In this document: piece by piece, positions 5,967-21,066 of the stretch | Numbering within the stretch: position 1 is the stretch's first letter | Layout: each line of letters begins with the position of its first letter | DNA from: Burkholderiales bacterium | GTDB lineage: Bacteria; Pseudomonadota; Gammaproteobacteria; Burkholderiales; Usitatibacteraceae | Length of the DNA stretch: 64,000 nucleotides | Direction: 5' to 3' | NCBI GenBank assembly: GCA_033764435.1 | Contig: JANRIX010000010.1 | Coordinates: 163,220 to 227,219 of the forward strand | Notes under the pieces: model-generated | What the model was told of the DNA's origin: nothing | Database searches by the model: none | What the model saw: only the letters and a program-made list of their open reading frames with translations | Made by a program: the position numbers and the translations under genes

Positions 5967-6311
5967 GACGAGACATGGCGCACCTCAGCGGGTCGGCAAA
6001 GCGACGAGTGTCTGCCGCAGAGGCCAGCCGCTCAAGCGCGATTCGATGAAGCGGTGAAATCGCGGCGTGAAATGCAGGGCGGTCCTGCCGCGCCTGCCGA
6101 GCGATACAGAGCGTCACAAATCGGCACATTCGATACCAAATGCCGCTCAATTTTGCGCTGCGCTACGCGCGCGCGGCCATCGCCGCGCATGGCGACAAAC
6201 CGTTCGTCGCCTGATACAAAATTTCCGGCTTTCCCTATCAAGCATGGTGGGGACAAGCGCCTTCAGCCCTGCTAACGTCGAGAAGTTCCCGCCCAGGATG
6301 AAGGAGGCCCC

Positions 6312-8459
6312 ATGCCGTCACGCCAAGTCAACCTCACCCATGCCGGACTTCGCACGCTGGACGCCCGGCCAGACCGCCTCGATCTGCGCGACCGCCCGTA
6401 TCTGCCCCCGGTGCGATCGCTGCCGCATCGCTACCCCAGCGACGCCAATCTCCGGAAACTCCTTCCCGATTACCTGAAGAAAAAGATGGTGCTCGATCAG
6501 GGCCAGGAAGGCGCATGCACCGGCTTTGGTCTCGCGGCCGCCATCAACTTCATGCTCTGGTACAGGCATGTCGAAACCAAAGGTCGCTACCCCTACAAGC
6601 GGGTCAGCCCGTACATGCTCTACGACCTCGCGCGCTTCTACGACGAATGGCCGGGCGAGGACTACGACGGCTCCAGCTGCCGCGGCGCCATGAAGGGCTG
6701 GCACAAACATGGCGTCTGCGAATATTCGCACTGGACCAGCTCGGTGAAGCCCGGCGGAACCTCGGGAAAATCATCGAAGCCGTACAAACCCAATACCGGT
6801 TGGGCATTCGATGCGGCCAACTGTCCGGTCGGCATCTACTACCGGGTCAATCGCGAGTCTGTCACCGACATCCAGGCCGCCATCAACGAAATGGGCGCGG
6901 TCTACGTCGCGGCCACCGTCCACGCCGGCTGGGACAGCGTCAAGCTGGCGAATGCCCGCCTGAAAAGCCACGACGACATCCCGGTCATTCCGTGGACGAA
7001 GGACTATCAAGCCACTGGCGGTCACGCGTTTGCGCTGATGGGCTTCAACGAATCCGGCTTCGTCGTGCAGAACTCCTGGGGCGACCGATGGGGCAACCAG
7101 GGCTTCGCCGTGATCACCTACGCCGACTGGGTTGCCAACGGCTGCGACGCGTGGGTGTGCTCGCTGGGCGTGCCACAGGTCAAGCCCGGGTCGGCTGCCA
7201 ACGCGGCAACGGTGTCGCGCGTGCGCCAATTGAATTCGTCGGCTGTCACGCCGGCTGCGGCGCTCGCCTCGACAGCGCCTTCTGCCGCCGAGCCGTGGGA
7301 CGTGGACACCGCCTACGCGCACACGCTGGTCGCCGGCAACAACGGCGTCGTCCGCCACAACACCCCTGATATCGGCAGCGCAGCCGCCCAGGTCGAGAAG
7401 ATCCTCGTCGATGCGCCGCTGGCCTGGGCCAGGGAAACAAAGCTTGCCAAGTCCGGCAAGCCACTCAAGCTGATGCTCTACGCGCATGGCGGCCTCAATT
7501 CGGAAGACAGCTCGGTGAAGCGCATTCGCAAGCTGGGACCGTACTTCCTCGCCAACGGCGTGTACCCCGTGTTCTACACCTGGCGCACCGGGTTCATGGA
7601 AGTTGTGAAAAGCGCTCTCGGCGACGCATTTGCCCCGAGTGAAGCGCCCGCGTCGGGCAAGCTGGCCGACGCCAAGGACGCGCTGATTGAGGCGATCTGC
7701 CACGGCACGCGCGCCATCTGGAACGAAATGACGGAGAACGCCGCGCGCGGCGCCGACGCCGGACACGCGATCGACCTCGCGGCCGAGGCGATCGTCATGC
7801 TCGCCAGCAAAGTCGATCTTGAAGTGCATCTCGTTGGCCACTCCGCCGGATCGTTCGTCCACGGCCACCTCATGGACGCGCTCGCCAAGCGCAAGCTGCC
7901 GGTGCACTCGCTGACCCTCTACGCCCCCGCCTGCTCACTCGACTTTGCCAATGAACACTTCGTCCCGGCGGTGCAGAAGAAGCGGCTGGCCAAGGACGCG
8001 TTCTGGCTGCACGTCCTTTCCGACAAGCGCGAGCGTGCGGATTTCGTGGGGCCCGGCACGACCCGGGTCTACGGCAAATCCCTGCTCTATCTCGTCAGCC
8101 GAGGGTTCGAGAGCACGCGCAAGACGCCACTCGCGGGGCTTGAACACTGCCTCGATACGCGCGCCGACAACCCCGACGATGATCTGTGGACAAAGGCGCT
8201 CTACGAGAAGGATGTGCTGGCGTGGCGGAAGTTCGTTGCCACGCTGCCCGCGCAGGCGGATGGCAGGGCGGCGGTGGAGGTCACGGATGCCGATGTCGTC
8301 ACTGAGAAACTGAACGCCGACGGGACCATGTCGACCACCAAGGCCTCGCACGGCTCGTTCGACAACGATGTCGATGTTGTCACGCGCACGATCAATCGCG
8401 TGCTGGGGGTGGCCCCCGGCGCGAAGTTGGCGGTGCCGGTCGTGGATTTGAAGTATTGA
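6312..8459 (+). CDS. fusion protein: N-terminal papain-like (C1) cysteine peptidase domain + C-terminal alpha/beta-hydrolase domain
   Basis: RBS aaggagg before ATG 6312. C1 motifs: QGQEGACTGFGLAAAINF (Gln/Cys), GGHAFALMGF (His), VVQNSWGDRWGNQGF (Asn-Ser-Trp). Hydrolase motifs: LMLYAHGGLN (oxyanion HGG), LVGHSAGSFV (GxSxG nucleophile), C-terminal SHGSFDND. Confidence 0.8.
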   Translation: MPSRQVNLTHAGLRTLDARPDRLDLRDRPYLPPVRSLPHRYPSDANLRKLLPDYLKKKMVLDQGQEGACTGFGLAAAINFMLWYRHVETKGRYPYKRVSPYMLYDLARFYDEWPGEDYDGSSCRGAMKGWHKHGVCEYSHWTSSVKPGGTSGKSSKPYKPNTGWAFDAANCPVGIYYRVNRESVTDIQAAINEMGAVYVAATVHAGWDSVKLANARLKSHDDIPVIPWTKDYQATGGHAFALMGFNESGFVVQNSWGDRWGNQGFAVITYADWVANGCDAWVCSLGVPQVKPGSAANAATVSRVRQLNSSAVTPAAALASTAPSAAEPWDVDTAYAHTLVAGNNGVVRHNTPDIGSAAAQVEKILVDAPLAWARETKLAKSGKPLKLMLYAHGGLNSEDSSVKRIRKLGPYFLANGVYPVFYTWRTGFMEVVKSALGDAFAPSEAPASGKLADAKDALIEAICHGTRAIWNEMTENAARGADAGHAIDLAAEAIVMLASKVDLEVHLVGHSAGSFVHGHLMDALAKRKLPVHSLTLYAPACSLDFANEHFVPAVQKKRLAKDAFWLHVLSDKRERADFVGPGTTRVYGKSLLYLVSRGFESTRKTPLAGLEHCLDTRADNPDDDLWTKALYEKDVLAWRKFVATLPAQADGRAAVEVTDADVVTEKLNADGTMSTTKASHGSFDNDVDVVTRTINRVLGVAPGAKLAVPVVDLKY
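6718..6729. repeat. GCGAATATTCGC palindrome copy (perfect)
   Basis: 12/12, extended TGCGAATATTCGCA; in the C1 peptidase domain, reads CEYSH (frame checked). Confidence 0.95.
8139..8459. repeat. direct repeat copy A (3' end of the peptidase/hydrolase gene), paralogous to 14676-14993
   Basis: Encodes LEHCLDTRADNPDDDLW...AWRKFVATLPAQADGRAAVEVTDADVV...SHGSFDNDVDVVTRTINRVLGVAPGAKLAVPVVDLKY. About 70% aa identity to the downstream remnant. Confidence 0.75.
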
Positions 8460-8469
8460 TCGAGCGCAC

Positions 8470-9921
8470 ATGAACCACCCGGACACAACGCCAAAGGAGC
8501 GATTGGAAAAGGAAAAGCTCAGGCTTGAGATTGCCCGCCTTTATGGCCTGTCCAGTATCGAAACTGAGAAAGCCAAGACTGATCTGAAAATTGCATCGGA
8601 CTCATTCAGGCGTCAGATCACGATCGCCGTGGTCGGACTGCTGATTCCGGCGCTTTCACTCGTTTGGTCTGTGCACTCTTACACCGAGTCCCAACGGGCA
8701 CGATCCAGCGAAGCCGACTCAAGGGCAAAGGCCGAGCGTGAGGCCTCCCTTGAGAAGTCCAAGAGTGAACTGGCCATTCGCGAGCGCCAAATGTTGATCC
8801 AAGCGCTGGGCCTACTTTCGAAACCAGATGCGGCAGAAAGAATTGCGGGTGCGGTGGCGCTCTCCGCGGCCGTCACGCCAGGCAGCCCGGAAGCGAAAAT
8901 TGCCACAGGCGCACTCCTCGCCCGACTTGCGCACGAAACAGACATTCCCGTGATCGAGGCAGTCTCCAGATCAGTGGCAAATTTCGGGGTTTCAGCCGCA
9001 CCAGAAATTGTCTCGCTGAACCAGCGCTCTGCCTACTCAGTTGCAACAAGCGTCGCAGACTGGTCCGCAGTATCCGATCGGAGATTGACTGAACGGGAAC
9101 GAAAGGCAATCCACAAGTCGGAGGAGAGCGAAAGGGCTTGGCTTTGGAGTCACGTTGGTGCCGTACTTGAGCGATCAGGACTCCCTATGCAGCCGGATCT
9201 CGAAGGCATCAATAAGTCCAGCTCGATCGCGGAGCTCAACATCCTCGGATCGAAGAAGTTCTGGGCTGTCTACACAGACAGAAGAGAGTCACTGCTGAAG
9301 CGACAAGGCGCAGGTTCGGCGCCAGAACCTGAAGGAGAGCTGGCGCCGAATCACCGTCGACACATTGCCTTGATCGAATCTCAAATCAGCCGGCATGCTC
9401 GAACTCTGGCCGGCACAAGCCTCGCATTGGTTCAAATACTTCGCACATCAAGCCCGGAGGCCATTCAAAAGCTGGACCTGAGTGGCATTTCTCTCACCCG
9501 CGGCAACCTCGATGGCACGAACCTCATGCGTGCAAGACTGAAGAGTGCACTCGTCTACGCAAGCCTCAGAAACGCAAATCTCAGCGGGGCCGTGTTGAGC
9601 AACGCACACATAGAGGGGCCAATGGGGAGAGCCGACTTCAGAACGGCAAACTTGGAGGGCGCGCAGATCAGAGGCATTGGCCTGCTGCAGGTGCTCTTTT
9701 TCGGCCGAAGCTGCAAGGCGAGCGCCGACAGACGGTCACGGTTTCCGATCATGGATGAGAATGGACGCAAATTGCTACTGGATCACATTACCGGGGGCAT
9801 AAGTGCCGATGGATTCAAACTCCTTGGCAATCAAGAAAAACAAACTGTCACTGCGGATAGCTTCAAGCAGAATGTCGCTCGCTTGCTGGTTGATTGCCTG
9901 GCGCCTGAAGTGATCCCATGA
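8470..9921 (+). CDS. pentapeptide-repeat protein with N-terminal coiled-coil/TM anchor
   Basis: One TM helix (ITIAVVGLLIPALSLVWSV). C-terminal pentapeptide repeats (LSGISLTRGNLDGTNLMRARLKSALVYASLRNANLSGAVLSNAHIEG...ADFRTANLEGAQIRG). Starts 11 nt after the upstream stop. Confidence 0.7.
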   Translation: MNHPDTTPKERLEKEKLRLEIARLYGLSSIETEKAKTDLKIASDSFRRQITIAVVGLLIPALSLVWSVHSYTESQRARSSEADSRAKAEREASLEKSKSELAIRERQMLIQALGLLSKPDAAERIAGAVALSAAVTPGSPEAKIATGALLARLAHETDIPVIEAVSRSVANFGVSAAPEIVSLNQRSAYSVATSVADWSAVSDRRLTERERKAIHKSEESERAWLWSHVGAVLERSGLPMQPDLEGINKSSSIAELNILGSKKFWAVYTDRRESLLKRQGAGSAPEPEGELAPNHRRHIALIESQISRHARTLAGTSLALVQILRTSSPEAIQKLDLSGISLTRGNLDGTNLMRARLKSALVYASLRNANLSGAVLSNAHIEGPMGRADFRTANLEGAQIRGIGLLQVLFFGRSCKASADRRSRFPIMDENGRKLLLDHITGGISADGFKLLGNQEKQTVTADSFKQNVARLLVDCLAPEVIP

Positions 9922-9971
9922 AATTCGGGATCAGTCGTTGCCCGAATTGAATTTTCCGGAGCCACATAATC

Positions 9972-10907
9972 ATGCCACCCACCCGCATCGCCTTCACCTC
10001 CTGCGCCCGCATCGAGGACTTCCCTTCCCAGCCGCAGTGGAAGGAGATCCAGGATGCCGAACCGCACTACCTCCTCCTGCTGGGCGATCAGATCTACATG
10101 GACTACGGATTCAGCAGCGAGCCGAACGGTTCGCCTGCCGACTATCCGCTGGACAAGTTTCGGGACACGATGGCGGCAAAGTACGCGCGCCAGTGGTCGG
10201 AGACACATTTCAAGGACCTGCTTGAATACATGCGCGCCGAGGAGTCTCCAGACAAACCGCGAATATTCGGCACCTGGGACGACCATGACTTCGGCTGGAA
10301 CAATGCCTTCGGCCTGCAGCCGAAAATGACGCCCGACAAATACCAGGCCACGCTCGACCTCTTCCATCAATGGATGAATTGCTCGACCAACCGGCCGCAT
10401 GTGTACTGTCACGCGGACATCGGCGACTTGGCCCGGCTCATCATCCTCGATCAGCGCAGTCACGCTGAGCCCGCAAGCCCGACCAAGCCGACGGCGTCGT
10501 TGCTGGGCGCGGACCAATGGGCGTTTCTGCGGGACAAGCTCAACCACGACAAGCAATACACCCTACTCTGCGGCGGGCTCAGCCTCACCCGCGGCAAGGA
10601 CAACTGGGAGGAGTACCAAGACGAGTACCAGCAACTGCGCGATCTCATCGAGGATCGCGAAGGCGTGATCTATCTGGGCGGCGACATCCACAGCAACAAA
10701 TTCATGAAGCCCGGCGATGACCGGCCGTGCTACGAGATCATCTCATCCGGGCTGGCCGTCAACCTGCTCGCGCTGACGTCGCTGGGCATTGACGATCGCC
10801 ATAACTGGAGCTATCTCGACCTCTCCGAAGAGGGTGTAAAGGTGGTGCAATCCACGTCGGGAAAGCTCAAGCGGCACGCAATCCGATTTGACAATTGGTG
10901 GGGCTGA
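9972..10907 (+). CDS. PhoD-like / calcineurin-like metallophosphatase
   Basis: Metallophosphoesterase signature blocks ARIAFTSC, LLLGDQIYMDYG, WDDHDFGWNN, LGGDIHSNKF. Confidence 0.75.
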   Translation: MPPTRIAFTSCARIEDFPSQPQWKEIQDAEPHYLLLLGDQIYMDYGFSSEPNGSPADYPLDKFRDTMAAKYARQWSETHFKDLLEYMRAEESPDKPRIFGTWDDHDFGWNNAFGLQPKMTPDKYQATLDLFHQWMNCSTNRPHVYCHADIGDLARLIILDQRSHAEPASPTKPTASLLGADQWAFLRDKLNHDKQYTLLCGGLSLTRGKDNWEEYQDEYQQLRDLIEDREGVIYLGGDIHSNKFMKPGDDRPCYEIISSGLAVNLLALTSLGIDDRHNWSYLDLSEEGVKVVQSTSGKLKRHAIRFDNWWG

Positions 10908-10969
10908 CCTCGGCTACACATCAGGGGACTTTGCAGGGGATTGCTTGCAATCCGGAAAGGGGGCGAACG

Positions 10970-13306
10970 ATGAGTACCAAGCGGAAATCACGAGTGGCAT
11001 CCTCCAGAGCGCCAAAGGAAGAGATTGAGCTGTCGATCTGCGCCTTTGGTGTCGACCCTTTGACGATCACCCTGCCCGATCCGTCTTCGGACATGCAGTC
11101 GGTGAACATCAAGCAGCTCATCCTCAACTCGACTGCGGAACTCTGGACATACACGCTTCAGAACCGGATGCGCTGGCAAAGCGAAGATGGCATCTCGTCG
11201 AAGCTGACTCGGAAGGCCCGGGGCGCATTCGAAGAACTGGGAATCGCCCCGAGCGAGTGGTCCAAGCTGGCCTCCAGCAAGATCGCCCAGATTTCAATCC
11301 CCGTTGATCGGCTTGGCCAGAACGCGCTTCGACTCATGCCGTGGGAGTTCTTCATCGCCTCCGCGCTGGCCGCTGATCCACGAGTGCCCATCGTCCGCAA
11401 AGCTGTATTCACTCAGTCCGCAAAGCCTGCAACTCCAGAGCGCACCAACAAGACCATTCTCTTTATCCAGAGCGCGCCAGGCCGGTTGGGCACAGCGTAC
11501 GACTTTGATTCAGAGAAAAAGCTGGTCAGGTCAACGTTCAGCGACGCCACTGTCAAGATTCTGGAAAACCCTGACATCGCCGAGATCCGCAGGTGCGTTG
11601 TAGATCTGGATCCCGAGGTGATTCACTTCGCTGGCTTCGATTATCGGCAGGCGATGGCAGAGCTGTCGGCTGACGCCGCGGGCGAGTACCCCTCCGCGAT
11701 CCCGCGAGTGGGTGCGTGGCCAGAGGACTCGTTTGACGGCGTCGTTCTTGGTGACCCCGCTCAAGGTGTCGTCGCGCACCATTCCGCCGAGTTTGCCGAC
11801 GCCCTGTGTGCCGGCAAGCGGGGGCCGGTCATGGTTTGCCTCGCGTGCTGGCATGGCGCGACCGCGCTCGCGCCCGAGCTAGTGCTGGCCGGCGCGCGGA
11901 GTTGCTTCTGCTTTCAGGACATTCTGGATGATGAGTTCGCCGAGACGATCCTGTCGTCCTTCTACCGCTTCTGGCGCGACGAGAACTGGAAGCTCGGCCC
12001 CGCCTTCACCAACACACTTCGCCACTTGTGGAAGCAGCCCGGCGGCGTGCGCGGCACCGGCATCGTTCTTCTCACCACCGACGAGCTTGTCGCCCGGAAC
12101 ACACCGGAAACCGAGCCGCAGAAAACAGAGGCAGCTCCCCCGCTCAGGGGGAAGAAGTTGGCAGACGCGAACCTCCCGGCGTTGATCGGCTTCGACATTC
12201 GCCCGCACAACGAGCTCAACTACGCGATGCTCCATAACGCGCAGCCACTGTTCAAGAGCTTCCGCATCATTCGCCTGTCCGACGCAGAGTTCGAGGACTT
12301 GGAAATCACGGTCGACCTTTGCACAGGACCGGAAGGCAAGGCGTTCCGACGCACGACAGCATTGCGCGTTCAAACGCTTGATCTCACGCGTGAGATCGTC
12401 ATCCCCCTCAATGCGACCCTCTCCCGCCAGATCCGCGAAGCAGTGTCCAGCAGCCTGTTCGTCGAGATCGCCTGTGGCGGCAGAATCCTTCACCGAGAGA
12501 CCCATCGAGTCCGCCTGCTGCCAGCGGATCAATGGAAAGACAGCGCCAAGGACAGCCGCTGGCTGCCCAGCTTTGTGCTCCCGCGCGACCCGGCCGTCAC
12601 CCACGTCATCCGGGACGCGCACAAGTACGTCAAAGTCCTGCGCGATGATCCCGACGCCGGATTCGAGGGCTATCAGGTCTACTCCAGCATCGACGACGAG
12701 AGTGAGCACAGCGAGGACGAACAGATCGCCCTGGATCTGCAAGTTCAAGCCATCTGGGCCGCGATCGCACACGAATGCCGGTTGGTCTACATCAATCCGC
12801 CGCCCACCTACAGCGATGGCTTCGACTCACAGCGGCTGCGCACACCCAGCACGACAGTCAATGGTCAGATGGGCACCTGCATTGACCTCGCGCTCCTGTT
12901 TGCCGCCTGCCTGGAGTTCGTGGACATCTACCCCGTCATCTTCCTGCTGGATGGTCACGCACTTCCCGGCTATTGGCGCAGCGAGACCGCACACAGCCGA
13001 TTCGTCTGCATCGACAACCCCGGCGACGCGGCTGTCCGCCAGAGTCGAAGCAGTGCCCTCGCCGGTGGGTCGAAACTTGGGGACGGCTGGGTCTTTGACG
13101 AATCGATTTATGAGGAAATCAGAAAGGAAATCGAAATCGGCAATCTGGTGCCCGTCGAATCGACCCGACTGACCCAGGTCTCGTCATTCGCGCAGGCCGT
13201 CGAGCTCGGCACGCGCGCCCTGGCTTCCGCATCGGGCTTTCAATGCATGCTCGACATCCATATCGCGCGGCAATTGAACGTAACGCCGCTGCCCATACAG
13301 GAGTAA
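10970..13306 (+). CDS. CHAT (caspase-like) domain + C-terminal transglutaminase-like cysteine-protease domain protein
   Basis: RBS aaaggggg before ATG 10970 (M26 of ORF 10895). CHAT-like block VIHFAGFDY...VMVCLACWHGATALAPELVLAGARSCFCFQDILDDEFAETILSSFYRFW. C-terminal transglutaminase-core-like block GTCIDLALLFAACLEFVDIYPVIFLLDGHALPGYW (Cys..His..Asp). Confidence 0.65.
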   Translation: MSTKRKSRVASSRAPKEEIELSICAFGVDPLTITLPDPSSDMQSVNIKQLILNSTAELWTYTLQNRMRWQSEDGISSKLTRKARGAFEELGIAPSEWSKLASSKIAQISIPVDRLGQNALRLMPWEFFIASALAADPRVPIVRKAVFTQSAKPATPERTNKTILFIQSAPGRLGTAYDFDSEKKLVRSTFSDATVKILENPDIAEIRRCVVDLDPEVIHFAGFDYRQAMAELSADAAGEYPSAIPRVGAWPEDSFDGVVLGDPAQGVVAHHSAEFADALCAGKRGPVMVCLACWHGATALAPELVLAGARSCFCFQDILDDEFAETILSSFYRFWRDENWKLGPAFTNTLRHLWKQPGGVRGTGIVLLTTDELVARNTPETEPQKTEAAPPLRGKKLADANLPALIGFDIRPHNELNYAMLHNAQPLFKSFRIIRLSDAEFEDLEITVDLCTGPEGKAFRRTTALRVQTLDLTREIVIPLNATLSRQIREAVSSSLFVEIACGGRILHRETHRVRLLPADQWKDSAKDSRWLPSFVLPRDPAVTHVIRDAHKYVKVLRDDPDAGFEGYQVYSSIDDESEHSEDEQIALDLQVQAIWAAIAHECRLVYINPPPTYSDGFDSQRLRTPSTTVNGQMGTCIDLALLFAACLEFVDIYPVIFLLDGHALPGYWRSETAHSRFVCIDNPGDAAVRQSRSSALAGGSKLGDGWVFDESIYEEIRKEIEIGNLVPVESTRLTQVSSFAQAVELGTRALASASGFQCMLDIHIARQLNVTPLPIQE

Positions 13307-13310
13307 GGCC

Positions 13311-14660
13311 ATGAGCACGTTTAGCGCAGAAAACCGCAAGGATGTGGGCGAATGCATCAAGTCTTCCATCTCCTCCATGGAGAGCCTTTTTTCGGCGGAG
13401 CACATGGAAGCCTCGGAGCGGATGACCGGCCGCCGACGCAGCGGTGCGACGCTGCGACAGCAGCCGCGCCTGCAGCTGGTGGATGTCGACGGCGTGTTGC
13501 GCTGGCGATACCGGGATGTCGAGGCCGGACCGAGCGGGAGACGTTCGCTCCGCGCCATCGCTGCCACGGCCATGGGAGATGTCGTGGTCGACCTCCCCTT
13601 GAAGCCGTTGAACCGCAATCAAGTGCTGGCTGCGATGCAAAGCCTCGATGATTCCCTCACGCCCTCGCGCGGGCTGCGAGTGATTCACGAGGGTCAACTG
13701 GTCAAGGCACCGGAGATCGAGCACCCGGCAAAGGTTCTGCTCTTCATACACGGCACCTTCAGCAAGGGCGAGGCCCTCTACGACGAACTCAAGTCCACCG
13801 AGGACGGCCACAAGTTCCTGCATTGGGCGCATGAGCACTATGATCACGTGCTCTTCTTCGATCATCCCACGCTCGCCGTCAGCCCCATACTGAATGCCGT
13901 CGAGCTCAGCACACTTCTGGCGGGCCGCTGCAGCAGCATCGACATCATCGCCCACAGCCGCGGCGGCATCGTCGCCGCGTGGGCCGCCAAAGGCATGAAA
14001 CTGCCCCTCGGCATCGTGTGTACGCTGGGTAGTCCGCTCGATGGCACCAGCCTGGCCAGCCCCTACCGCCTGCGCGACACGCTGGACTACTTCGCCAACG
14101 TTGCCGCCGCTTGCAAGCTCGCCACCGGCGCACTCGGCGCTGTACCGTTTGCAGGTCCGCTGTTCGCAGCGACGGCCGGACTCATGTCTGTATTGCAAAC
14201 CGTCCTCTACGCCTCTGCCAAGACACCGCTCATCGACGCGGGCATTGCGATCGTGCCCGGCCTTGCAGCGCAATCACGTGTCGACAACAATCCGGAGCGG
14301 ATAGCGTTGCAGGATGACCGTACGGCGGCCCACGTATCCGGGACTTTCATCGGTGTCACCGCAAACTTCAGCCCGCAGCATATCGACGAGCCGATTTGGC
14401 AATTCTGGAAGCGGTGGCAGAGGCTGCCGTGGTCAGTGGCCAACAAGGTCACGGATGCCATCTTCGAGTCGGCCAACGATCTTGTCGTCGACTGCGACTC
14501 TGCAAAGAAATTCTGCGGCGCACCCGCAGCCGCCACGCAGATCTTCGACTTTGGTGACACCCATCTCGTGCATCACTGCAACTACCTGACGCAAAGCAGA
14601 ACGCTCGACTTCGTGAAGACGCATTTGACCGACCGGCATGCCGCAGCCGGGAGAACGTAA
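13311..14660 (+). CDS. alpha/beta-hydrolase (lipase/esterase-like) protein
   Basis: LLFIHGTFSKGEALY (oxyanion region) and IIAHSRGGIVAAW (GxSxG-type nucleophile elbow). Stop TAA 14658-14660 is in frame with the downstream remnant. Confidence 0.7.
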   Translation: MSTFSAENRKDVGECIKSSISSMESLFSAEHMEASERMTGRRRSGATLRQQPRLQLVDVDGVLRWRYRDVEAGPSGRRSLRAIAATAMGDVVVDLPLKPLNRNQVLAAMQSLDDSLTPSRGLRVIHEGQLVKAPEIEHPAKVLLFIHGTFSKGEALYDELKSTEDGHKFLHWAHEHYDHVLFFDHPTLAVSPILNAVELSTLLAGRCSSIDIIAHSRGGIVAAWAAKGMKLPLGIVCTLGSPLDGTSLASPYRLRDTLDYFANVAAACKLATGALGAVPFAGPLFAATAGLMSVLQTVLYASAKTPLIDAGIAIVPGLAAQSRVDNNPERIALQDDRTAAHVSGTFIGVTANFSPQHIDEPIWQFWKRWQRLPWSVANKVTDAIFESANDLVVDCDSAKKFCGAPAAATQIFDFGDTHLVHHCNYLTQSRTLDFVKTHLTDRHAAAGRT

Positions 14661-14675
14661 CGCAAGGTCGGCCGC

Positions 14676-14993
14676 CTCGCCCACTGCCTCGACCCGAAAG
14701 CGGACAACCACGACGACGACCTCTGGACACCACGCGAATATTCGCAAGTGGTCGCGTGGCGCGATTTCGTCCGCGCGCTGCCCGCGCAGGCCGACGGCCG
14801 CGACGCCGCGGAAGTCGTCACCATCGACGTCGTCCCCGCCAAGCTCGGCGCGGACGGCAGCGTGGTCACCATCGAGTCCACCCACGGCTCGTTCGACAAC
14901 GACCTCGAAACCATTTCGCGGACGATCAACCGGGTGTTAGGCAAGGTGCCGTCGGCGCCGCTGGAGGTGGGGGTGACGGATTTGAAGTATTGA
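14676..14993. repeat. direct repeat copy B (paralog of 8139-8459)
   Basis: See copy A. Contains a perfect GCGAATATTCGC copy that the upstream copy lacks. Confidence 0.75.
14734..14745. repeat. GCGAATATTCGC palindrome copy (perfect)
   Basis: 12/12; within the gene remnant, reads EYS. Confidence 0.95.
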
Positions 14994-15012
14994 GTAAGGG
15001 GTGGCAGAGAGT

Positions 15013-15024
15013 GCGAATATTCGC
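15013..15024. repeat. GCGAATATTCGC palindrome copy (perfect)
   Basis: 12/12, extended TGCGAATATTCGCA; intergenic. Confidence 0.95.
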
Positions 15025-15078
15025 AAGCGCCAGCGCGTCGGCGGCGACGGTTACGTAACGGAATGTCATGATTCTGCA

Positions 15079-15090
15079 GCGAATATTCGC
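15079..15090. repeat. GCGAATATTCGC palindrome copy (perfect)
   Basis: 12/12; intergenic. Confidence 0.95.
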
Positions 15091-15159
15091 AATTGGCAGC
15101 ATCAAACCGCCTCACAGCGCAATTCGCTGCCGGCGTCACAAAAAGCCACCAGAAAACAC

Positions 15160-15192
15160 CAGAACCCTACAAAGGTTGATGGGGTTTCTTCT
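15160..15192 (+). terminator. terminator-like hairpin + T-tract (member of the ccctaY..tgggg hairpin family)
   Basis: aaccctacaaaggttgatggggtttcttctc; related to the hairpins at 3343 and 6233. Confidence 0.35.
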
Positions 15193-15590
15193 CGCCAGCT
15201 TAGACATACTGTCTCGTAACGTTGCCTTCATCGATGCCCTGCGCAAGAATGACCCGTAAATGATTGACATCGTCCTGGACGACTTTGCCAATGCGCTGGC
15301 CGAACTGCTGACGACGAACGAGATGTCGATAACGCCCGATACACAATCAATCGCCGACGACGGCGAGCCGACTTGACCAGCGACGCAATGTGACTCGATC
15401 AATCCAAAGCCGAGCAAATGCGCATCACTCTCAGAACGAGGATGAAGAACCAGCTCGTCCAGGCTGTCGTGAAGGGGCGAGGGATGAGATGACAGAGGAA
15501 GAGGAGCGGCATGCGGGGCATGAAGACGTTAGGTCAAGAGCGGCGATTGTGATCGCCAAACCATAGTCCTACAAGGCATTTGACGGTATC

Positions 15591-16595
15591 TTGGCATTGC
15601 ATAGCCCAATGCCGCGCTCATTGAACCGACCGAAAGAAATCAAGGTCGTTGCAGGAAAGGGGAAATACTTGTTTAACTCGCAGATTGGTCCACTAGACGG
15701 CCCTTCCTGGGAGGCGCTGTGCCAAGAGGCCCTCAAGAGACGGCACCATTCCGAGGGATACCAAGAAATGAAAGCGTCCCCCGGCGACTATGGGATTGAT
15801 GGCTTCACACTGGATTCTGGACTTGCCTTTCAGTGCTATTGCCCGGAAAAACACTACTCTCGGCCAGAGCTGTATGAAAAGCAGAGAGACAAAATCACAG
15901 AAGACGTAGGGAAGCTACGGACGCATCAGAAGCCAATTCTCGACAGAGTTGGGAGCAATAAGTTCTCGAAATGGATATTCCTTACCCCTGAGTATGACAA
16001 GAATGATCTTCTCGCCCACGCAAGAAGCAAAGAAGTAGAAGTTCGAAGCTGGAACCTACCATTCCTAACTTCGGATTTTCAGATAGTAATAAGGGATGCC
16101 TCTGACTACAGAACTGAAATCAATGAGATCCGCGTCCTCAGTCTGGAGCCCCTCTACTTTGAGGATGAAGTCCCGACCCTAAAAACGATTCAGGGCGAGA
16201 AGGAAGAGCACGAAAAAAACATCGAGAGGAAGTCCAAGGCCCGACTTGCAGGGGCCGAACAAAGCCCTCGCTATTCAACTCGACTGGAGCAACTGCGTCA
16301 GAAGACTCTGGAGAGTTTTTTTGAGTACGAAGATTTCTTTCGAAAAATTAGTGACGACGCGCCGTTGATTTACGTCAGGCTAGTTCGACTAATAAATGAG
16401 TATGAAGAGATGGTGGTCGAGTCCTCCACCACATGGTCGGGAACAGCACAGGACCTAACTGAAAAAATTCGTGATGACCTAGCTTCTAGGATTTCTCAAG
16501 AGCTTGCGCCACAGATATCAGCGGCCACTGCAATGAAGATAGCCAGAATAATGACTGCGCGATGGATAGCTGTTTGCGAGTTGGACTATGGATAG
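15591..16595 (+). CDS. Lamassu/ABC-3C-like system, putative effector subunit (LmuA-like)
   Basis: 334-aa ORF in a ~45% GC block, first of three translationally coupled genes (overlaps 16588/17046). Weak PD-(D/E)xK-like pattern (GDYGIDGF...QCYCPEK). Assignment rests on position and architecture. Confidence 0.4.
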   Translation: MALHSPMPRSLNRPKEIKVVAGKGKYLFNSQIGPLDGPSWEALCQEALKRRHHSEGYQEMKASPGDYGIDGFTLDSGLAFQCYCPEKHYSRPELYEKQRDKITEDVGKLRTHQKPILDRVGSNKFSKWIFLTPEYDKNDLLAHARSKEVEVRSWNLPFLTSDFQIVIRDASDYRTEINEIRVLSLEPLYFEDEVPTLKTIQGEKEEHEKNIERKSKARLAGAEQSPRYSTRLEQLRQKTLESFFEYEDFFRKISDDAPLIYVRLVRLINEYEEMVVESSTTWSGTAQDLTEKIRDDLASRISQELAPQISAATAMKIARIMTARWIAVCELDYG

Positions 16596-17049
16596 CCCAA
16601 TCGTCGAACTTGTATTCCGGCGCCAGCCATCGGCGGTGATTCCAGAACACAGACCACTTTACAAGATCTCTCAGCTTGCGCTGATCCTAAATGTCTCATC
16701 CCGCGCTGGACGATCTAAAGTTTCGCGATTGCACTTATTGAACTGGGCGCTAAAGAAGAGATCGCGACAACTGTTGCTAGAACGTGCTGCTGAAAGCGGC
16801 ACACTTAGGATTCAAGCTTGGGGCTTCGATCCCATTCTTGCATTTGCAATTCGCTTTGCACTCGCTGACGGCATTGTTGCAGATACGTCGACCGGTTATG
16901 AGCTCACGGAGAAAGGAAGATCCTTTGCCATGGCCATTCTGAAAGATCCCACTTTGTTGGCGAGCGACAAAGTTTTTCTAGAAAGAATCGGAAAAGGCAT
17001 TACGGAAACAATGGTGGATGCTGTGGCAAATGACTGGGACATTAGATGA
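16588..17049 (+). CDS. Lamassu/ABC-3C-like system, small middle component (LmuC-like)
   Basis: 153-aa ORF overlapping both neighbours by 8 and 4 nt; no catalytic motifs. Confidence 0.4.
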   Translation: MDSPIVELVFRRQPSAVIPEHRPLYKISQLALILNVSSRAGRSKVSRLHLLNWALKKRSRQLLLERAAESGTLRIQAWGFDPILAFAIRFALADGIVADTSTGYELTEKGRSFAMAILKDPTLLASDKVFLERIGKGITETMVDAVANDWDIR

Positions 17050-19091
17050 AGATAAATGCGATTCGGGTCAAGATTTCGGCAACCGAAGGTGACTTTGGAT
17101 TTAATTTCCAGTTTGGTAAGAATCTGACAATCATTAGAGCCAACAACACAAGCGGTAAGAGCACTCTAATCAACTGCTTGCTATACGGCCTGGGCATGGA
17201 AGAGCTGATTGGGGGCAAGGGGGAAAGGACGCTCTCGTCCGCGGTCAAAGACGCGTTCGATCACGGCCAAAAGAAGATTCAGGTTCTTAGCTCTGAAGTA
17301 TGGCTTGAGATTGAAAACTCTCAAGGTGCAATAGTCACACTTCGGAGAGCCATCAAAGATAAATCCCGCGACTCAAAGCTAATCGAGATTTATCCCGTCG
17401 CATTTCTGACAGAGGGCGAAACGCCAATCACCTCAACTCCAACATATTTGCACGATCCCGGAAGCGCCAAGAACCAAGGGGGCTTCTATCATTACTTGGA
17501 ACAGTTCCTCCAACTCTCACTGCCGAGAGTACCCACAGTTTCTGGCTCCGAAACGAAGCTCTACATTCAATGCGTTTACACAGCTTGTGCTGTAGAACAA
17601 AAAAGAGGTTGGACTGACTACCTAGCAAACATGCCATTTTTTGGTATCAGAGATGCGAGAACCAGGGTTGTTGAATACATTTTGGGACTCGATGTATTTG
17701 AAACAAATTCTGAGAGAAATAGACTCAACCAAGAGTCAATTGAGATCGATAAGGACTGGAGATCATTGGTTGAGCAAATGAATTCGAAGGGGCTTCGAAT
17801 CGGCGCAAAGTTAGTCAACCTTCCAGCTACGCCGACAGTGTCGTTCGATCCCAATCTCGTGGCGTATGTCTTCCCACAGGGCCAAGCGACCATCACATTG
17901 TCAGAGCATCTCTCGGCGCTTCGATCGCGACACGCAAGTCTCGAGGCTCAAAGAGATCGATTCCGCTCGAACGCCAGCCAAGAATCCATACAAGCAGTCG
18001 ACTCCACAACAGAGGAGTTGAGCCAGCTGAATCTTTTTCACGGCCGCTCTCTTGCTTATGTCGAGCAACTAAAGATTTCACTCTCTCAGTATGGCGAGCA
18101 ACTGGAGGAGACAAACGAAGATCTGTCTAGGAATAAAACTGCCGGGAAGCTACAAGAGCTAGGTGCAAAATTCGAATTCAGCACCAGCTCCAACATCTGC
18201 CCAACTTGCGATCAACCGATCAATGAATCTCTGATACCAAAGGCAATCTCAGGACCGCAAATGGATCTTGCGTCGAACATTCGATATCTCGACAGTCAGA
18301 GGAAGATGCTCGAACGGCAGATTCTTGGAATACAACAGAGCTTAGCTGATGCCGAATCGAACACGAAGGCGTTTGAAGCTCAGATTCGGACCAAGACGCA
18401 GTTTCTTGCCAACCTAAGGGGAGACATTTCAACTGGAGCTGCAGAGTCTCGGGCTGTTGCCCGAGAGCAAGCCCAAATTGAACTTGAAATAGAAGCATTG
18501 GAGAGATTGGTTTCGGATCTCGCCCCGTCCTTAAATCGGATAAACGCACTAGCCCTGAAACTAAGAGAAAACCAAGCATTTCGCAACACTCTTCCTAAGT
18601 CGATCTACACGGAATCTGACGAAAGCAAGATTCGAATTTTTGAGAAGCAGTTTCGAGCAAATGCCGGCTCCTTTGGATACGAAAGCGCTCCAATCAATGA
18701 GATTGGCATTTCCTTTGAGAAACTTACTCCGAGTTGGGCAGACATCGAATTGCGCGAAGTGATTGACCGAGACATTCAAGCGGAATCAAGTGCCAGCGAT
18801 TTTATAAGATTGATCTGGAGCTACTTACTAGCACTTCACCAGACTTCGGCGCTGAGCGCGGTTGACGGTCGACATCTCGGCCAGCTAATTCTCGACGAGC
18901 CTGGACAGCACTCAATGGCTGCCCCGAGCCAGCACGCCCTACTTAAGCAATTAGCCGCTGAGAAAGAGCTTCAAAGCATTGTGTCAGCCTCGTTTGATGA
19001 GACCGAGGAGGTATTCCTGAAGGCAACCGCAGGCATTGCGTTTGAATTAATTCGCTGGGAGGGAAAGCTGATTCAACCACTCGATGCGTAA
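17046..19091 (+). CDS. SMC/Rad50-like ABC ATPase with coiled-coil and CxxC zinc-hook (LmuB-like)
   Basis: Walker A IIRANNTSGKST at the N-terminus. Long coiled-coil with ICPTCDQPINESLIP (CxxC hook) at its centre. C-terminal Walker B QLILDEPGQH. Confidence 0.7.
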   Translation: MKINAIRVKISATEGDFGFNFQFGKNLTIIRANNTSGKSTLINCLLYGLGMEELIGGKGERTLSSAVKDAFDHGQKKIQVLSSEVWLEIENSQGAIVTLRRAIKDKSRDSKLIEIYPVAFLTEGETPITSTPTYLHDPGSAKNQGGFYHYLEQFLQLSLPRVPTVSGSETKLYIQCVYTACAVEQKRGWTDYLANMPFFGIRDARTRVVEYILGLDVFETNSERNRLNQESIEIDKDWRSLVEQMNSKGLRIGAKLVNLPATPTVSFDPNLVAYVFPQGQATITLSEHLSALRSRHASLEAQRDRFRSNASQESIQAVDSTTEELSQLNLFHGRSLAYVEQLKISLSQYGEQLEETNEDLSRNKTAGKLQELGAKFEFSTSSNICPTCDQPINESLIPKAISGPQMDLASNIRYLDSQRKMLERQILGIQQSLADAESNTKAFEAQIRTKTQFLANLRGDISTGAAESRAVAREQAQIELEIEALERLVSDLAPSLNRINALALKLRENQAFRNTLPKSIYTESDESKIRIFEKQFRANAGSFGYESAPINEIGISFEKLTPSWADIELREVIDRDIQAESSASDFIRLIWSYLLALHQTSALSAVDGRHLGQLILDEPGQHSMAAPSQHALLKQLAAEKELQSIVSASFDETEEVFLKATAGIAFELIRWEGKLIQPLDA

Positions 19092-19097
19092 TTGCCT

Positions 19098-19826
19098 ATG
19101 CCGGTTTTTCGAGTAATTCTTGCTTCTCAACTCCGCCTCCTAACCTTCCGCGAATTCAAACCCAACCTGCGCGACCACTGGCGCGCGTATCTGGGCTGGG
19201 GGATGTTCTGGACGTGGGTGGCGGGCATGGGCCGGTATTGGGACAACCCCAAAGCCGAGTGGTGGCAGGCGCTGGGCCTGGGCTCGATCGCGTACATCTT
19301 CACGCTGGCGCTGGTGCTGTGGCTGATCATCCTACCGCTCAAGCCGAAAAACTGGACCTATCGCAACATCCTTATCTTCCTCTCGCTGACCTCGCTGCCG
19401 GCGGTGCTGTACGCGATCCCGGTGGAGCGCTTCATGCCGCTCGCCCAAGCGCAGGCGGCGAATGCGTGGTTCCTCGGCATCGTGGCGACGTGGCGGGTGC
19501 TGCTCTTGTGGTTCTTCATCCGCCGCGTGGCGCGGCTCTCCTGGCTGGACACGCTGGTGGCGTGCCTGCTGCCGCTCACGCTGATCGTCGTCGCGCTGAC
19601 GGCGCTGAACCTGGAGCACGTGGTGTTCAACATCATGGCGGGCAACACGCCTGAGCAGCAGTCCGGCAATGATCGGGCCTACGGGATTCTGTTTGTGATC
19701 ACGTTCTTTTCCATGATGCTCTCGCCGATTTTGGTGCTGGTCTATTTCGCGCGGGCAGGCATTCGGCTGCGGGAGGTGCGGGCGGAGCGGGATGCAGAAG
19801 AGGCTGGCCGACGCACGGGACAATAA
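19098..19826 (+). CDS. multi-pass membrane protein (6 predicted TM helices), hypothetical
   Basis: ATG 19098 lies 7 nt after the ATPase stop. GC returns to ~62%. Highly hydrophobic 243-aa product. Confidence 0.55.
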   Translation: MPVFRVILASQLRLLTFREFKPNLRDHWRAYLGWGMFWTWVAGMGRYWDNPKAEWWQALGLGSIAYIFTLALVLWLIILPLKPKNWTYRNILIFLSLTSLPAVLYAIPVERFMPLAQAQAANAWFLGIVATWRVLLLWFFIRRVARLSWLDTLVACLLPLTLIVVALTALNLEHVVFNIMAGNTPEQQSGNDRAYGILFVITFFSMMLSPILVLVYFARAGIRLREVRAERDAEEAGRRTGQ

Positions 19827-19884
19827 AGATGCGGTGAATTCATCATTGGTCTGAGAGTCGAAAGGCAGGCCAACCTTCCATGGG

Positions 19885-20724
19885 GTGACCAGATTGGGAT
19901 ATCAACGATGCAGCTTTGGGCTATTCGCAGGCGGATTGTTGGCCTCACTCTTTGTCGCAGCGCAAGAGTGCAGGCCGATTGAGAACCTGGAGAAGGTGGC
20001 TGACAAGAGATTGATCTTTGTTGGCGAGCTTCACGGCACAAAAGAATCCCCGCAATTCGTTTCCGACCTGACGTGCGGTTTGCTGCACATGAAGAAGCAG
20101 GTTGTTCTTGCAGTTGAGATGTCGAGTGACTTTCAGCCAGATTTGCAGTCAGCTATCAACGCGCCATCGGAACAGCAAGCTCTTGCCGAACTGGAGAAGC
20201 TTCGCTTTTGGGATGCGACGATGCAGGACGGGAAGCGCAGCTTGGCCTACATGAAACTGTTGAGGACGGCTTGGAGCTGGAAGCGGCAATTCCCTGACTT
20301 CGATGTTGCGGCAATCGATCTCTCGGGGTCCAGTTTCCCGTCTGCCAGAGCTGAGTTCATGGCAGGTGAGATCAGAAAGATTCTGAATCGCGACAGGCAG
20401 GTGGTGGTTGTCGCTTTTACTGGAAACATTCATGCTCGCAGACAGAAGGGAACACCCTGGAACAAGGCGTTTGTCCCAGCCGCCTCTCTGCTCAACGATG
20501 TTGAAATGGTCTCGCTGAATATGGACTACACGGCAGGGACAGCTTGGAACTGCGGGGGGCGCGGCTGCGGCATCAATCCAGTTTCCGACTTGCCAGTGAC
20601 TGGCAAGTCAACGAAGCCAAGCATTCAGATCAGTCAAGCGGACCCCTACTACGACGGCGTTTATCAACTCGGTGAAGTATCCGCCTCACCGCCTGTTCGA
20701 CAATCCCCAACAGCGAGTAAGTGA
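19885..20724 (+). CDS. hypothetical secreted protein (possible TraB/Tiki/ChaN-like fold)
   Basis: N-terminal signal (FGLFAGGLLASLFVAAQ); LIFVGELHGTKESPQF block; ~50% GC. Confidence 0.5.
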   Translation: MTRLGYQRCSFGLFAGGLLASLFVAAQECRPIENLEKVADKRLIFVGELHGTKESPQFVSDLTCGLLHMKKQVVLAVEMSSDFQPDLQSAINAPSEQQALAELEKLRFWDATMQDGKRSLAYMKLLRTAWSWKRQFPDFDVAAIDLSGSSFPSARAEFMAGEIRKILNRDRQVVVVAFTGNIHARRQKGTPWNKAFVPAASLLNDVEMVSLNMDYTAGTAWNCGGRGCGINPVSDLPVTGKSTKPSIQISQADPYYDGVYQLGEVSASPPVRQSPTASK

Positions 20725-20788
20725 GCTTGTCAGTTGGGCGTTTATTCAATTAGGGCGGGCTTAATCGTTTCGGCTGGTTTCGTGCACT

Positions 20789-20982
20789 CCGAATATTCGC
20801 AGTGCACGTTTGAGACGAACTTGGGCCCCGGCCCGTCATTCCCGCGAAGGCGGGAACGGGGCGACGGGGATGCGATTGCCATTGCGACTAAGTGGAGTCC
20901 GGGTGACTTCGATTGGACGCTGCAGGCGGTCCCGCAGGGATTCAGCAGTCGCCCCAAGCGACTGGTTAACAATATTCGCACT
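20789..20982. repeat. composite repeat element bounded by degenerate GCGAATATTCGC-like ends and containing a REP-like hairpin (20839-20856 ttcccgcgaaggcgggaa)
   Basis: Left end ccgaatattcgcagtgca (11/12); right end aacaatattcgcactgca (9/12); internal hairpin shared with the elements at 22283 and 33284. Confidence 0.5.
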
Positions 20983-21032
20983 GCAAGCGGGGCGCTGAAT
21001 CCCGGCTACGACATCGCAAGATCTTCGGCTCC

Positions 21033-21066
21033 AAAAAAATCGGCCGGCCCACTCAGTGGCCGGCCG
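21033..21066 (-). terminator. rho-independent terminator (minus strand)
   Basis: 8-bp GC stem ggccggcc/ggccggcc with loop cactcagt, followed on the minus strand by T7; lies just downstream of the small ORF 21140-21268. Confidence 0.5.

What the first reader, a model, noticed from the sequence alone, without database searches (positions are those of the whole stretch)
8470..14660. Candidate undescribed conflict/effector module: pentapeptide-repeat membrane protein + PhoD-like metallophosphatase + CHAT-transglutaminase fusion protease + alpha/beta hydrolase
Four co-oriented, tightly spaced genes form the cargo between the direct repeats. The gaps are 11, 50, 62 and 4 nt. The enzymatic domains are a caspase-like CHAT domain fused to a transglutaminase-like Cys-His-Asp protease core, a calcineurin/PhoD-like phosphoesterase and a GxSxG hydrolase. 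These are typical of toxin/effector or defence-system effectors. They sit beside a membrane-anchored pentapeptide-repeat protein that could act as sensor or scaffold. The cargo lies inside another two-protease-domain gene (C1 peptidase + hydrolase). I do not recognise this gene combination as a named defence or secretion-effector system.
Basis: partly seen in the sequence, partly recalled or inferred. Interest (0 to 1): 0.75.

Follow-up and report, generated by a model that had tools for sequence, protein, structure and literature searches.

The report
Pseudo-caspase/transglutaminase protein with lipase partner
The four genes are real but are not one system: only the last two, a caspase-like/transglutaminase-like protein and a lipase-like hydrolase, travel together in hundreds of bacterial species, forming an uncharacterised, fast-evolving pair that is probably a conflict or defence module.

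Summary
The four co-oriented genes are present with the stated spacing, and every fold call holds. One correction: the canonical catalytic Cys of the CHAT domain is an aromatic residue across the family, so that domain is probably not a canonical protease.

The cassette lies between a C1-peptidase gene and a diverged, host-like copy of that gene's last about 315 nt. It sits in a stretch free of the host's iterated palindrome and next to a low-GC Lamassu system. It is therefore an acquired insertion.

The four genes are not a conserved unit. In 80 loci from many phyla, the DUF7379 hydrolase follows the CHAT-like/TGase gene in 69, often with a 4-nt overlap. The pentapeptide, PhoD-like and C1 genes are found in none.

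The pair co-diverges (r = 0.91). It evolves far faster than a syntenic housekeeping neighbour (45% against 82-98% identity). Its partner is sometimes replaced by a protease-like gene. Its beta-sandwich plus TGase module is shared with the anti-phage protein ProA. DUF7379 is fused to canonical CHAT domains elsewhere.

The best reading is an undescribed two-gene conflict module with a lipolytic effector. The function is inferred, not shown. Neighbours in other genomes are mostly housekeeping genes.

The parts
6312..8459 (+). 715-aa C1-family (papain-like) peptidase with a C-terminal alpha/beta-hydrolase-like half. It is the target gene of the insertion and is not part of the conserved module.
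   Evidence: Pfam Peptidase_C1 scores 23 bits. Homologues are stand-alone 'C1 family peptidase' genes in Ideonella and Sinorhizobium replicons. Its composition is host-like (GC3 0.825), and it carries one host palindrome at 6718.
8145..8459 (+). Direct repeat copy 1: the 3' end of the intact C1-peptidase gene.
   Evidence: It aligns with 14682-14993, and both copies end at the stop codon.
8470..9921 (+). 483-aa pentapeptide-repeat protein with a single transmembrane segment. It is an orphan cargo gene.
   Evidence: Pfam Pentapeptide, E 2e-9. A hydrophobic segment lies at aa 50-68. GC is 0.56 and GC3 0.60, unlike its neighbours. No relatives were found in plasmids, metagenome contigs or the 80 loci.
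9972..10907 (+). 311-aa PhoD-like metallophosphatase without a signal peptide. It is a cargo gene with no conserved link to the others.
   Evidence: Pfam PhoD scores 57.5 bits. Only distant relatives (29% identity or less) were found, in unrelated contexts. It is absent from the 80 loci.
10970..13306 (+). 778-aa core protein A with three domains. The first is a CHAT-like (clan CD fold) domain at aa ~50-375, with invariant His219 but no canonical Cys. The second is an Ig-like beta-sandwich at aa ~400-523. The third is a transglutaminase-fold domain at aa ~526-778, with invariant Cys637, His663 and Glu730.
13311..14660 (+). 449-aa core protein B, a DUF7379 lipase-like alpha/beta hydrolase. It has the HG147-148 oxyanion motif and Ser216, Asp390 and His422. 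Its N-terminal ~135 aa form a separate domain carrying a conserved poly-Arg motif.
   Evidence: Pfam DUF7379 scores 98 bits. Invariant residues are shown. The AF2 model has pLDDT 83. The best PDB matches are family I bacterial lipases and the phospholipase A PlaF. The gene lies immediately downstream of A in 69 of 80 loci.
14682..14993 (+). Direct repeat copy 2: a displaced, host-like 3' remnant of a C1-peptidase gene, in frame and ending at a stop codon.
   Evidence: GC3 is 0.874, and a host palindrome lies at 14734.
15591..19091 (+). Adjacent Lamassu system (LmuA, LmuC, LmuB) at GC 0.48. It is a separate neighbour, not part of the module.
   Evidence: PADLOC gives LmuA 8e-38, LmuC 9.5e-21 and LmuB 4e-105.

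Best explanation
The region is a composite, horizontally acquired insertion at the 3' end of a C1-peptidase gene. Its only conserved functional unit is a translationally coupled two-gene operon.

Protein A (778 aa) joins three domains. The first is a caspase-like CHAT domain that has lost the canonical catalytic Cys. It is probably a scaffold, a docking domain or an oligomerisation domain. The second is an Ig-like beta-sandwich. The third is a catalytically intact transglutaminase-fold Cys-His-Glu enzyme.

Protein B (449 aa) is a cytoplasmic lipase-like serine hydrolase with an N-terminal regulatory domain.

I propose that the pair is a conflict module of the anti-phage, abortive-infection type. 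A would sense a trigger and use its TGase-fold active site, by cleavage or modification, and/or its CHAT-like platform to release B's activity. A candidate site is the conserved poly-Arg loop in B's N-terminal domain. B would then hydrolyse membrane lipids.

Shown here: the gene pair, its conservation, the folds, the catalytic residues and the rapid co-divergence.
Inferred: the conflict role, the direction of control (A controls B) and lipid as the substrate.

The pentapeptide and PhoD-like genes are unrelated passengers.
For: - Pair conservation. DUF7379 lies directly downstream of A in 69 of 80 loci from Acidobacteriota, Gemmatimonadota, Burkholderiales, Planctomycetota and others. Five of the remaining 11 are contig ends.
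- Translational coupling. The stop and start codons overlap by 4 nt in at least 20 loci.
- Co-divergence. A and B give r = 0.91 over 1035 locus pairs.
- Family size. There are 385 clusters (50% identity) at E<1e-30 and 437 hits among species-representative genomes.
- Catalytic residues. TGase Cys637 and His663 are present in 148 of 148 relatives and Glu730 in 147 of 148. CHAT His219 is present in 148 of 148, but the canonical Cys position is aromatic. B keeps an invariant Ser, Asp, His and HG motif.
- Fold of B. It matches lipases.
- Conflict signatures:
  - Lamassu is adjacent, and the host palindrome is absent from 6730-14733.
  - The beta-sandwich plus TGase module, triad included, is homologous to the N-terminus of NCBIfam 'anti-phage protein ProA', a Hhe-like helicase-nuclease.
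  - The partner is replaced by caspase-like or M36-like peptidase genes in four loci (these are weak hits).
  - In 16 syntenic Roseateles/Pelomonas-type loci the upstream dehydrogenase is 82-98% identical, while A falls to 44-47%.
  - DUF7379 is fused to canonical CHAT domains in Ruegeria, beside an AAA ATPase and an IS5 element, and in Burkholderia sp. YI23.
Against: - No PADLOC model hits A or B.
- 135 neighbours at 46 loci gave only generic PADLOC domain hits (MotB, DinG and similar), and flanking genes are mostly housekeeping.
- The pair was not found in viral contigs, and close copies were not found on plasmids.
- The ProA link covers one shared module, not the whole protein, and I could not find the primary paper on ProA.
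- No experiment bears on any of this.
- Activation through the poly-Arg loop is speculation. No model of the A:B complex could be made.
Confidence: 0.45

Rival explanations
1. One reading: the four genes (or five, with the C1 peptidase) act together as one conflict or effector system. The membrane pentapeptide protein would be the sensor or scaffold, and the phosphatase, protease and hydrolase the effectors.
For: The genes are co-oriented with gaps of 10 to 62 nt, and the terminator scan found no more hits than chance. All four lie within one insertion bracketed by the duplicated 3' end of the gene.
Against: None of 80 loci with the A gene has a pentapeptide, PhoD-like or C1-peptidase homologue within 10 kb. 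The pentapeptide gene differs in composition from the rest. Relatives of the PhoD-like gene and homologues of the C1 gene sit in unrelated, stand-alone contexts.
Confidence: 0.07
2. The pair has a cellular, non-defence role. It would be an intracellular lipase or esterase with a dedicated regulator or maturation factor. This would be analogous in gene arrangement to lipase-foldase operons. Possible roles are membrane-lipid remodelling, storage-lipid turnover or stress-induced self-lysis.
For: Neighbours in other genomes are mostly housekeeping genes. The pair keeps the same locus across Roseateles/Pelomonas-type genomes. The best structural matches of B are lipases, and some of those are encoded beside specific foldases (one search lists the LipA:LipB and lipase-foldase complexes).
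Against: Sequence turnover is extreme compared with the syntenic neighbour. Distribution is patchy: 437 of 185,579 species genomes. The partner is swapped for protease-like genes. The module is shared with ProA, and DUF7379-CHAT fusions sit next to an AAA ATPase and IS elements. In this window the pair lies in an acquired segment beside Lamassu.
Confidence: 0.3
3. B is an exported anti-bacterial or anti-eukaryotic phospholipase toxin of the Tle type, and A is an accessory, adaptor or immunity-like factor.
For: B has a lipase or phospholipase-like fold. One locus (L089) has PAAR-like and DUF2169 genes about 6 to 10 kb away.
Against: Neither protein has a signal peptide or a transmembrane segment. 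There is no recurrent link to secretion-system genes at the neighbours examined. A is far larger than known immunity proteins and carries its own conserved active site.
Confidence: 0.08

Closest known systems
Anti-phage protein ProA (NCBIfam NF058533), a Hhe-like DUF4011/SF1-helicase/REase/DUF3320 protein of about 1900-2000 aa
   Same: ProA's N-terminal ~330 aa form the same beta-sandwich plus transglutaminase-fold module as aa ~420-778 of protein A. Identity is 25-28% over the whole module. The LPSF..P.DPAV, TC.D, GHA and E motifs are conserved.
   Different: Protein A has no helicase, nuclease, DUF4011 or DUF3320 part. It scores 186 bits against a cut-off of 1500. It carries a CHAT-like domain instead and works with a separate hydrolase gene.
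CHAT proteases of immune systems: SAVED-CHAT, the type III-E Craspase TPR-CHAT (Csx29) and the DdvA anti-sigma factor
   Different: The canonical catalytic Cys is replaced by Trp, Tyr or Phe. There is no SAVED or TPR sensor domain, and no CRISPR or cyclase partner lies nearby. A TGase-fold enzyme is fused instead.
DUF7379-CHAT fusion proteins (Ruegeria pomeroyi SPO_RS20450, 966 aa; Burkholderia sp. YI23 BYI23_D015510, 1857 aa)
   Same: The same hydrolase family is physically joined to a CHAT domain that shares the family's 'PWE' motif (hhalign probabilities 99.9 and 89). The settings are rich in mobile elements.
   Different: In the fusions the CHAT domain keeps the canonical Cys (LNACDTG). 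No TGase module was detected. In Ruegeria an AAA ATPase gene follows the fusion gene.
Family I bacterial lipases and phospholipase A PlaF
   Same: They are the best structural matches of B, with a Ser-Asp-His triad and a helical lid.
   Different: Sequence identity is about 10-17%. B has no signal peptide and has an extra N-terminal domain of ~135 aa. TM-scores are modest (0.3-0.5).

Membership tests
ProA anti-phage protein (NF058533) | Full-length match above the curated cut-off (1500 bits), with the DUF4011, SF1 helicase, MTES_1575 nuclease and DUF3320 domains | tested here: not met
   The score is 186 bits. Only profile positions 1-248 of 1903 match. A true ProA (L083) scores 2222 bits and has all the domains.
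CHAT domain (PF12770, clan CD peptidases) | Caspase-like fold | tested here: met
CHAT domain (PF12770, clan CD peptidases) | Catalytic His-Cys dyad | tested here: not met
   His219 is present in 148 of 148. The canonical Cys position (294, fixed by alignment to the Ruegeria 'LNACDTG' motif) is Trp here and Tyr, Trp or Phe in 121 of 148.
Transglutaminase-like / papain-fold Cys enzymes (PF01841, PF04473) | TGase core fold with a Cys-His-acid triad | tested here: met
DUF7379 alpha/beta hydrolase (PF24096) | HMM match above the cut-off and an intact Ser-Asp-His triad | tested here: met
   The score is 98.4 bits against a cut-off of 33. HG147-148, Ser216, Asp390 and His422 are invariant.
PhoD-like phosphatase (PF09423) | HMM match above the cut-off | tested here: met
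   The score is 57.5 bits against a cut-off of 27, covering profile positions 2-268 of 343.
Any defence system in PADLOC-DB v2 | An HMM match of any of the four genes to a system component | tested here: not met
   There were no hits at E<=0.01 for the genes between 6312 and 14660. Only the neighbouring Lamassu genes match.
Lamassu | LmuA, LmuB and LmuC genes together | tested here: met
   This applies to 15591-19091 only. It is a separate adjacent system with a different GC content (0.48).
Anti-phage defence system (general) | Protection against phage; enrichment next to known defence genes | tested here: inconclusive
   Protection cannot be tested here. The pair is adjacent to Lamassu in this window, but 135 neighbours at 46 other loci gave only generic PADLOC hits.

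The most novel reading that the evidence does not exclude
The CHAT-like/TGase protein and the DUF7379 lipase form a previously undescribed, widespread two-gene immune system. A transglutaminase-fold enzyme, the same module that heads ProA, would sense or process a phage cue. It would then unleash a membrane-destroying lipase from a pseudo-caspase platform. The beta-sandwich plus TGase cassette would then be a portable sensor or activator module shared between otherwise unrelated defence proteins.
Probability: 0.3. Interest if true: 0.75.

Novelty: new variant of a known kind. Interest (0 to 1): 0.5.

Why it matters
If the pair is a defence or cell-suicide module, it adds a system found in hundreds of soil and freshwater species. 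These include Acidobacteriota, Gemmatimonadota, Planctomycetota and Burkholderiales, groups in which immunity is little studied.

It would also link three themes:
- a caspase-like domain that has lost its nucleophile;
- a transglutaminase-fold enzyme shared with the helicase-nuclease ProA;
- a lipase effector.

It would give a handle on what the unexplained N-terminal module of ProA does.

If it is instead a cellular lipase-regulator pair, the very fast evolution at a fixed locus still needs explaining.

Tried and rejected
- Word-indexed protein searches with the 803-aa ORF and with the family alignment returned none and one hit respectively. The exhaustive HMMER scan was needed.
- Megablast of the cassette against plasmids found nothing.
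- The exact-product look-up of the DUF7379 protein found no contig.
- Five of the ten literature searches looked for 'ProA' as an anti-phage protein. Further searches covered 'ProAB', DUF7379, the TGase-like plus CHAT combination, anti-phage plus transglutaminase-like, and DUF3320/DUF4011. None found a description of ProA or of this pair.
- Metagenome scans for relatives of the PhoD-like and pentapeptide proteins found none. Their co-occurrence elsewhere therefore remains untested beyond the 80 loci and the plasmid collection.
- The afdb50 fold library was unavailable.
- I considered a conserved third gene and rejected it. Upstream and downstream neighbours are variable housekeeping genes. A Peptidase_M4 gene follows the pair in only one set of near-identical contigs.
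- I considered that the C-terminal hydrolase half of the 715-aa protein is a DUF7379 paralogue and rejected it. The hhalign probability is 2%.
- I considered a tRNA-targeted island and rejected it. The nearest tRNAs are about 18 kb away.
Full report
**Observation.**
The + strand carries five closely spaced ORFs.
- 6312-8459: 715 aa.
- 8470-9921: 483 aa.
- 9972-10907: 311 aa.
- 10970-13306: 778 aa. The ATG is preceded by GGAAAGGGGG. A longer TTG ORF starts at 10895.
- 13311-14660: 449 aa.

The gaps between them are 10, 50, 62 and 4 nt.

Pfam confirms a weak Peptidase_C1 hit, Pentapeptide, PhoD and DUF7379. The pentapeptide protein has one hydrophobic segment at aa 50-68. The other proteins have no signal peptide or membrane segment. 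Promoter-like and terminator-like motifs are no more frequent than chance in 6000-15700.

**The insertion.**
The last ~315 nt of the 715-aa gene (8145-8459) recur at 14682-14993. The two copies are about 70-75% identical and both end exactly at the stop codon. The second copy is an in-frame C-terminal fragment that starts 21 nt after the DUF7379 stop codon.

The remnant is host-like in composition (GC3 0.874). It contains the 12-nt palindrome GCGAATATTCGC. That palindrome occurs 31 times in the window against 0.01 expected. It is absent from 6730-14733 and from 15091-22384.

GC3 differs from gene to gene:

| Gene or region | GC3 |
|---|---|
| Host genes | about 0.83 |
| Pentapeptide | 0.60 |
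| PhoD-like | 0.81 |
| CHAT-like/TGase | 0.755 |
| DUF7379 | 0.77 |
| Lamassu (15591-19091) | about 0.50 |

These values come, and the Lamassu assignment.

The cargo is compositionally mosaic. It holds no integrase, and the nearest tRNAs are about 18 kb away.

The window is from an NCBI MAG of a Burkholderiales bacterium (MDX2218042-50). Each of the five window proteins found by exact look-up is alone in its 90%-identity cluster; the 778-aa protein and LmuA were not found.

**Protein A (778 aa).**
It has no Pfam hit of its own. Its only NCBIfam hit is to 'anti-phage protein ProA', at 8e-55 over aa 442-706 of the 803-aa TTG ORF (aa 417-681 of the 778-aa protein), against profile positions 1-248 of 1903. 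That score is far below the cut-off.

An exhaustive HMMER scan found 2581 clusters (50% identity) at E<=1e-3 and 385 at E<=1e-30. Most of the top 150 matches span nearly the full length, and the best identity is 42%. Of 37 relatives, 22 hit CHAT and 7 hit a TGase-like family.

An AF2 model (pLDDT 79, pTM 0.78) shows three domains:
- an Ig-like beta-sandwich at aa ~400-523;

Across 148 relatives, the CHAT His219 is invariant. The canonical Cys position is Trp294 here and Tyr, Trp or Phe in 121 of 148. I fixed that position by profile alignment to a canonical 'LNACDTG' CHAT domain. In 89 of 148 relatives there is no Cys anywhere in 290-294.

The TGase-fold residues are conserved throughout. Cys637 and His663 are present in 148 of 148 and Glu730 in 147 of 148.

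The conserved catalytic centre is therefore the TGase-fold one. The CHAT half looks like a pseudo-enzyme or a non-canonical enzyme. The window protein also departs from the family motif N292..N295-S296. It reads A292-C293-W294-H295-G296, and I cannot explain this.

**Protein B (449 aa).**
It is a DUF7379 protein. HG147-148, Ser216 (within CHSRGG), Asp390 and His422 are invariant. Its AF2 model has pLDDT 83.

The best PDB matches are family I lipases from Proteus, P. aeruginosa and Burkholderia, and the phospholipase A PlaF. TM-scores are modest.

The N-terminal ~135 aa form an extra domain. It carries a conserved RRRR motif (aa 41-44) in a low-confidence loop, and a second basic motif.

**Gene-neighbourhood test.**
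A scan of one genome per species found 437 relatives of A, and 80 loci were fetched. tblastn with the window's genes gave the following:
- DUF7379 lies directly downstream in 69 of 80 loci.
- Five of the other 11 loci are contig ends.
- The pentapeptide, PhoD-like, C1-peptidase and Lamassu genes appear in 0 of 80.

The B start codon overlaps the A stop codon by 4 nt in at least 20 loci, and also in independently called contigs. A and B co-diverge, with r = 0.91 over 1035 locus pairs.

Where B is missing, the downstream gene is one of the following:
- caspase-like (L044, L056);
- M36-like metallopeptidase (L067, L079);
- unrelated (L010, L075).

The caspase-like and M36-like assignments rest on weak Pfam hits.

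There is no conserved third gene. Upstream and downstream neighbours are variable and mostly housekeeping.

**Signals for and against a conflict role.**

For:
1. The pair sits in an acquired segment next to Lamassu.
2. The whole beta-sandwich plus TGase module, triad included, is homologous to the N-terminus of ProA. Identity is 25-28% over ~330 aa. In a Raoultella IncF plasmid, ProA is a 1963-aa Hhe-like protein with DUF4011, an SF1 helicase, an MTES_1575 nuclease and DUF3320.
3. The partner is sometimes swapped for a protease-like gene.
4. Sixteen Roseateles/Pelomonas-type loci share an upstream semialdehyde dehydrogenase. That gene is 82-98% identical among them, while A drops to 44-47% between two subgroups.
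5. DUF7379 is fused to canonical CHAT domains in Ruegeria pomeroyi and in Burkholderia sp. YI23. The Ruegeria protein has 966 aa and lies beside an AAA ATPase and an IS5 element. The Burkholderia protein has 1857 aa.

Against:
1. There is no PADLOC hit for A or B.
2. 135 neighbours at 46 loci gave only generic PADLOC hits.
3. The pair is absent from viral contigs. The single hit in the phage collection is an unverified contig encoding a 2018-aa ProA-like ORF.
4. There is no experimental evidence. I found no paper describing ProA or this pair.

**The other two genes.**
The pentapeptide protein has no detectable relatives in plasmids or, by exact-peptide scan, in metagenome contigs. The PhoD-like protein has only distant relatives, in phosphate-type or unrelated contexts. 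Homologues of the 715-aa gene are stand-alone. Nothing ties these genes functionally to A and B except adjacency in this one genome.

**Verdict.**
The four-gene system is not supported.

What is there is a divergent member of a widespread, unnamed two-gene family. It is at most 42% identical to anything found. Protein A is a pseudo-CHAT, beta-sandwich and TGase-fold protein. Protein B is a lipase-like DUF7379 hydrolase.

My best mechanistic reading, at about 0.45, is a conflict or abortive-infection module in which A controls a lipolytic effector B. A cellular lipase-regulator role is the main rival, at about 0.3.

In terms of novelty it is a new variant of a known kind: a two-gene module of a protease-like regulator and a hydrolytic effector. 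Interest is moderate.

Noticed in passing
window, whole; e.g. 836, 3018, 4869, 6718, 14734, 15013, 15079, 22385: The 12-nt palindrome GCGAATATTCGC occurs 31 times in 64 kb, against 0.01 expected. It behaves like a highly iterated palindrome of the host genome. It is absent from 6730-14733 and 15091-22384, which marks both blocks as foreign.
   Followed up: partly
window 15591-19091: A complete Lamassu system (LmuA 334 aa, LmuC 153 aa, LmuB 681 aa) at GC 0.48, in a host genome of GC 0.65. The LmuA effector domain has no Pfam hit.
   Followed up: partly
window 14661-14993 and 8145-8459: An in-frame, host-like 3' remnant of a C1-peptidase gene lies directly after the cassette. This is the signature of an insertion that brought its own replacement 3' end, yet no integrase lies between the repeats.
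   Followed up: partly
L093:5383-8283 (Ruegeria pomeroyi megaplasmid) and L094:5395-10968 (Burkholderia sp. YI23 plasmid): Single proteins fuse a DUF7379 hydrolase to a canonical, Cys-bearing CHAT domain. The Ruegeria gene is followed by a 986-aa AAA ATPase and preceded by an IS5 transposase.
   Followed up: partly
L083:8947-14838 (Raoultella IncF plasmid); L095:27-6083 (MT836269, unverified 'phage' contig): ProA-type Hhe-like helicase-nucleases begin with a beta-sandwich plus TGase-fold module that keeps the Cys-His-Glu triad. This was checked in the Raoultella copy; the MT836269 copy was checked only by tblastn. The role of this module in ProA appears to be undescribed in the literature I could search.
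   Followed up: partly
L015-L078, a subset of 16 loci (Roseateles/Pelomonas-type genomes): All share the same chromosomal site, downstream of a semialdehyde dehydrogenase. The CHAT-like/TGase alleles fall into two groups that are only 44-47% identical, while the neighbouring gene stays at 82-98%. This points to allelic replacement or very fast evolution.
   Followed up: yes
window 11837-11860 (aa 290-297 of the 778-aa protein): The window protein reads C-L-A-C-W-H-G-A where 133-139 of 148 relatives have N292 and S296. It has an adjacent Cys293 and lacks the family's near-invariant Ser. The meaning is unknown.
   Followed up: partly
L084-L088 (ENA and Logan metagenome contigs): In one set of near-identical contigs, a Peptidase_M4 (thermolysin-like) gene with an FTP propeptide follows the pair after 25 nt. 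M36-like genes replace DUF7379 in L067 and L079. This may indicate a recurrent metallopeptidase association.
   Followed up: partly
window 33057-36703: A cluster of seven tRNA genes (Leu, Gln, Lys, Arg, His, Glu, Cys) lies on the - strand. ARAGORN also calls one tRNA of undetermined identity at 33057-33130.
   Followed up: no
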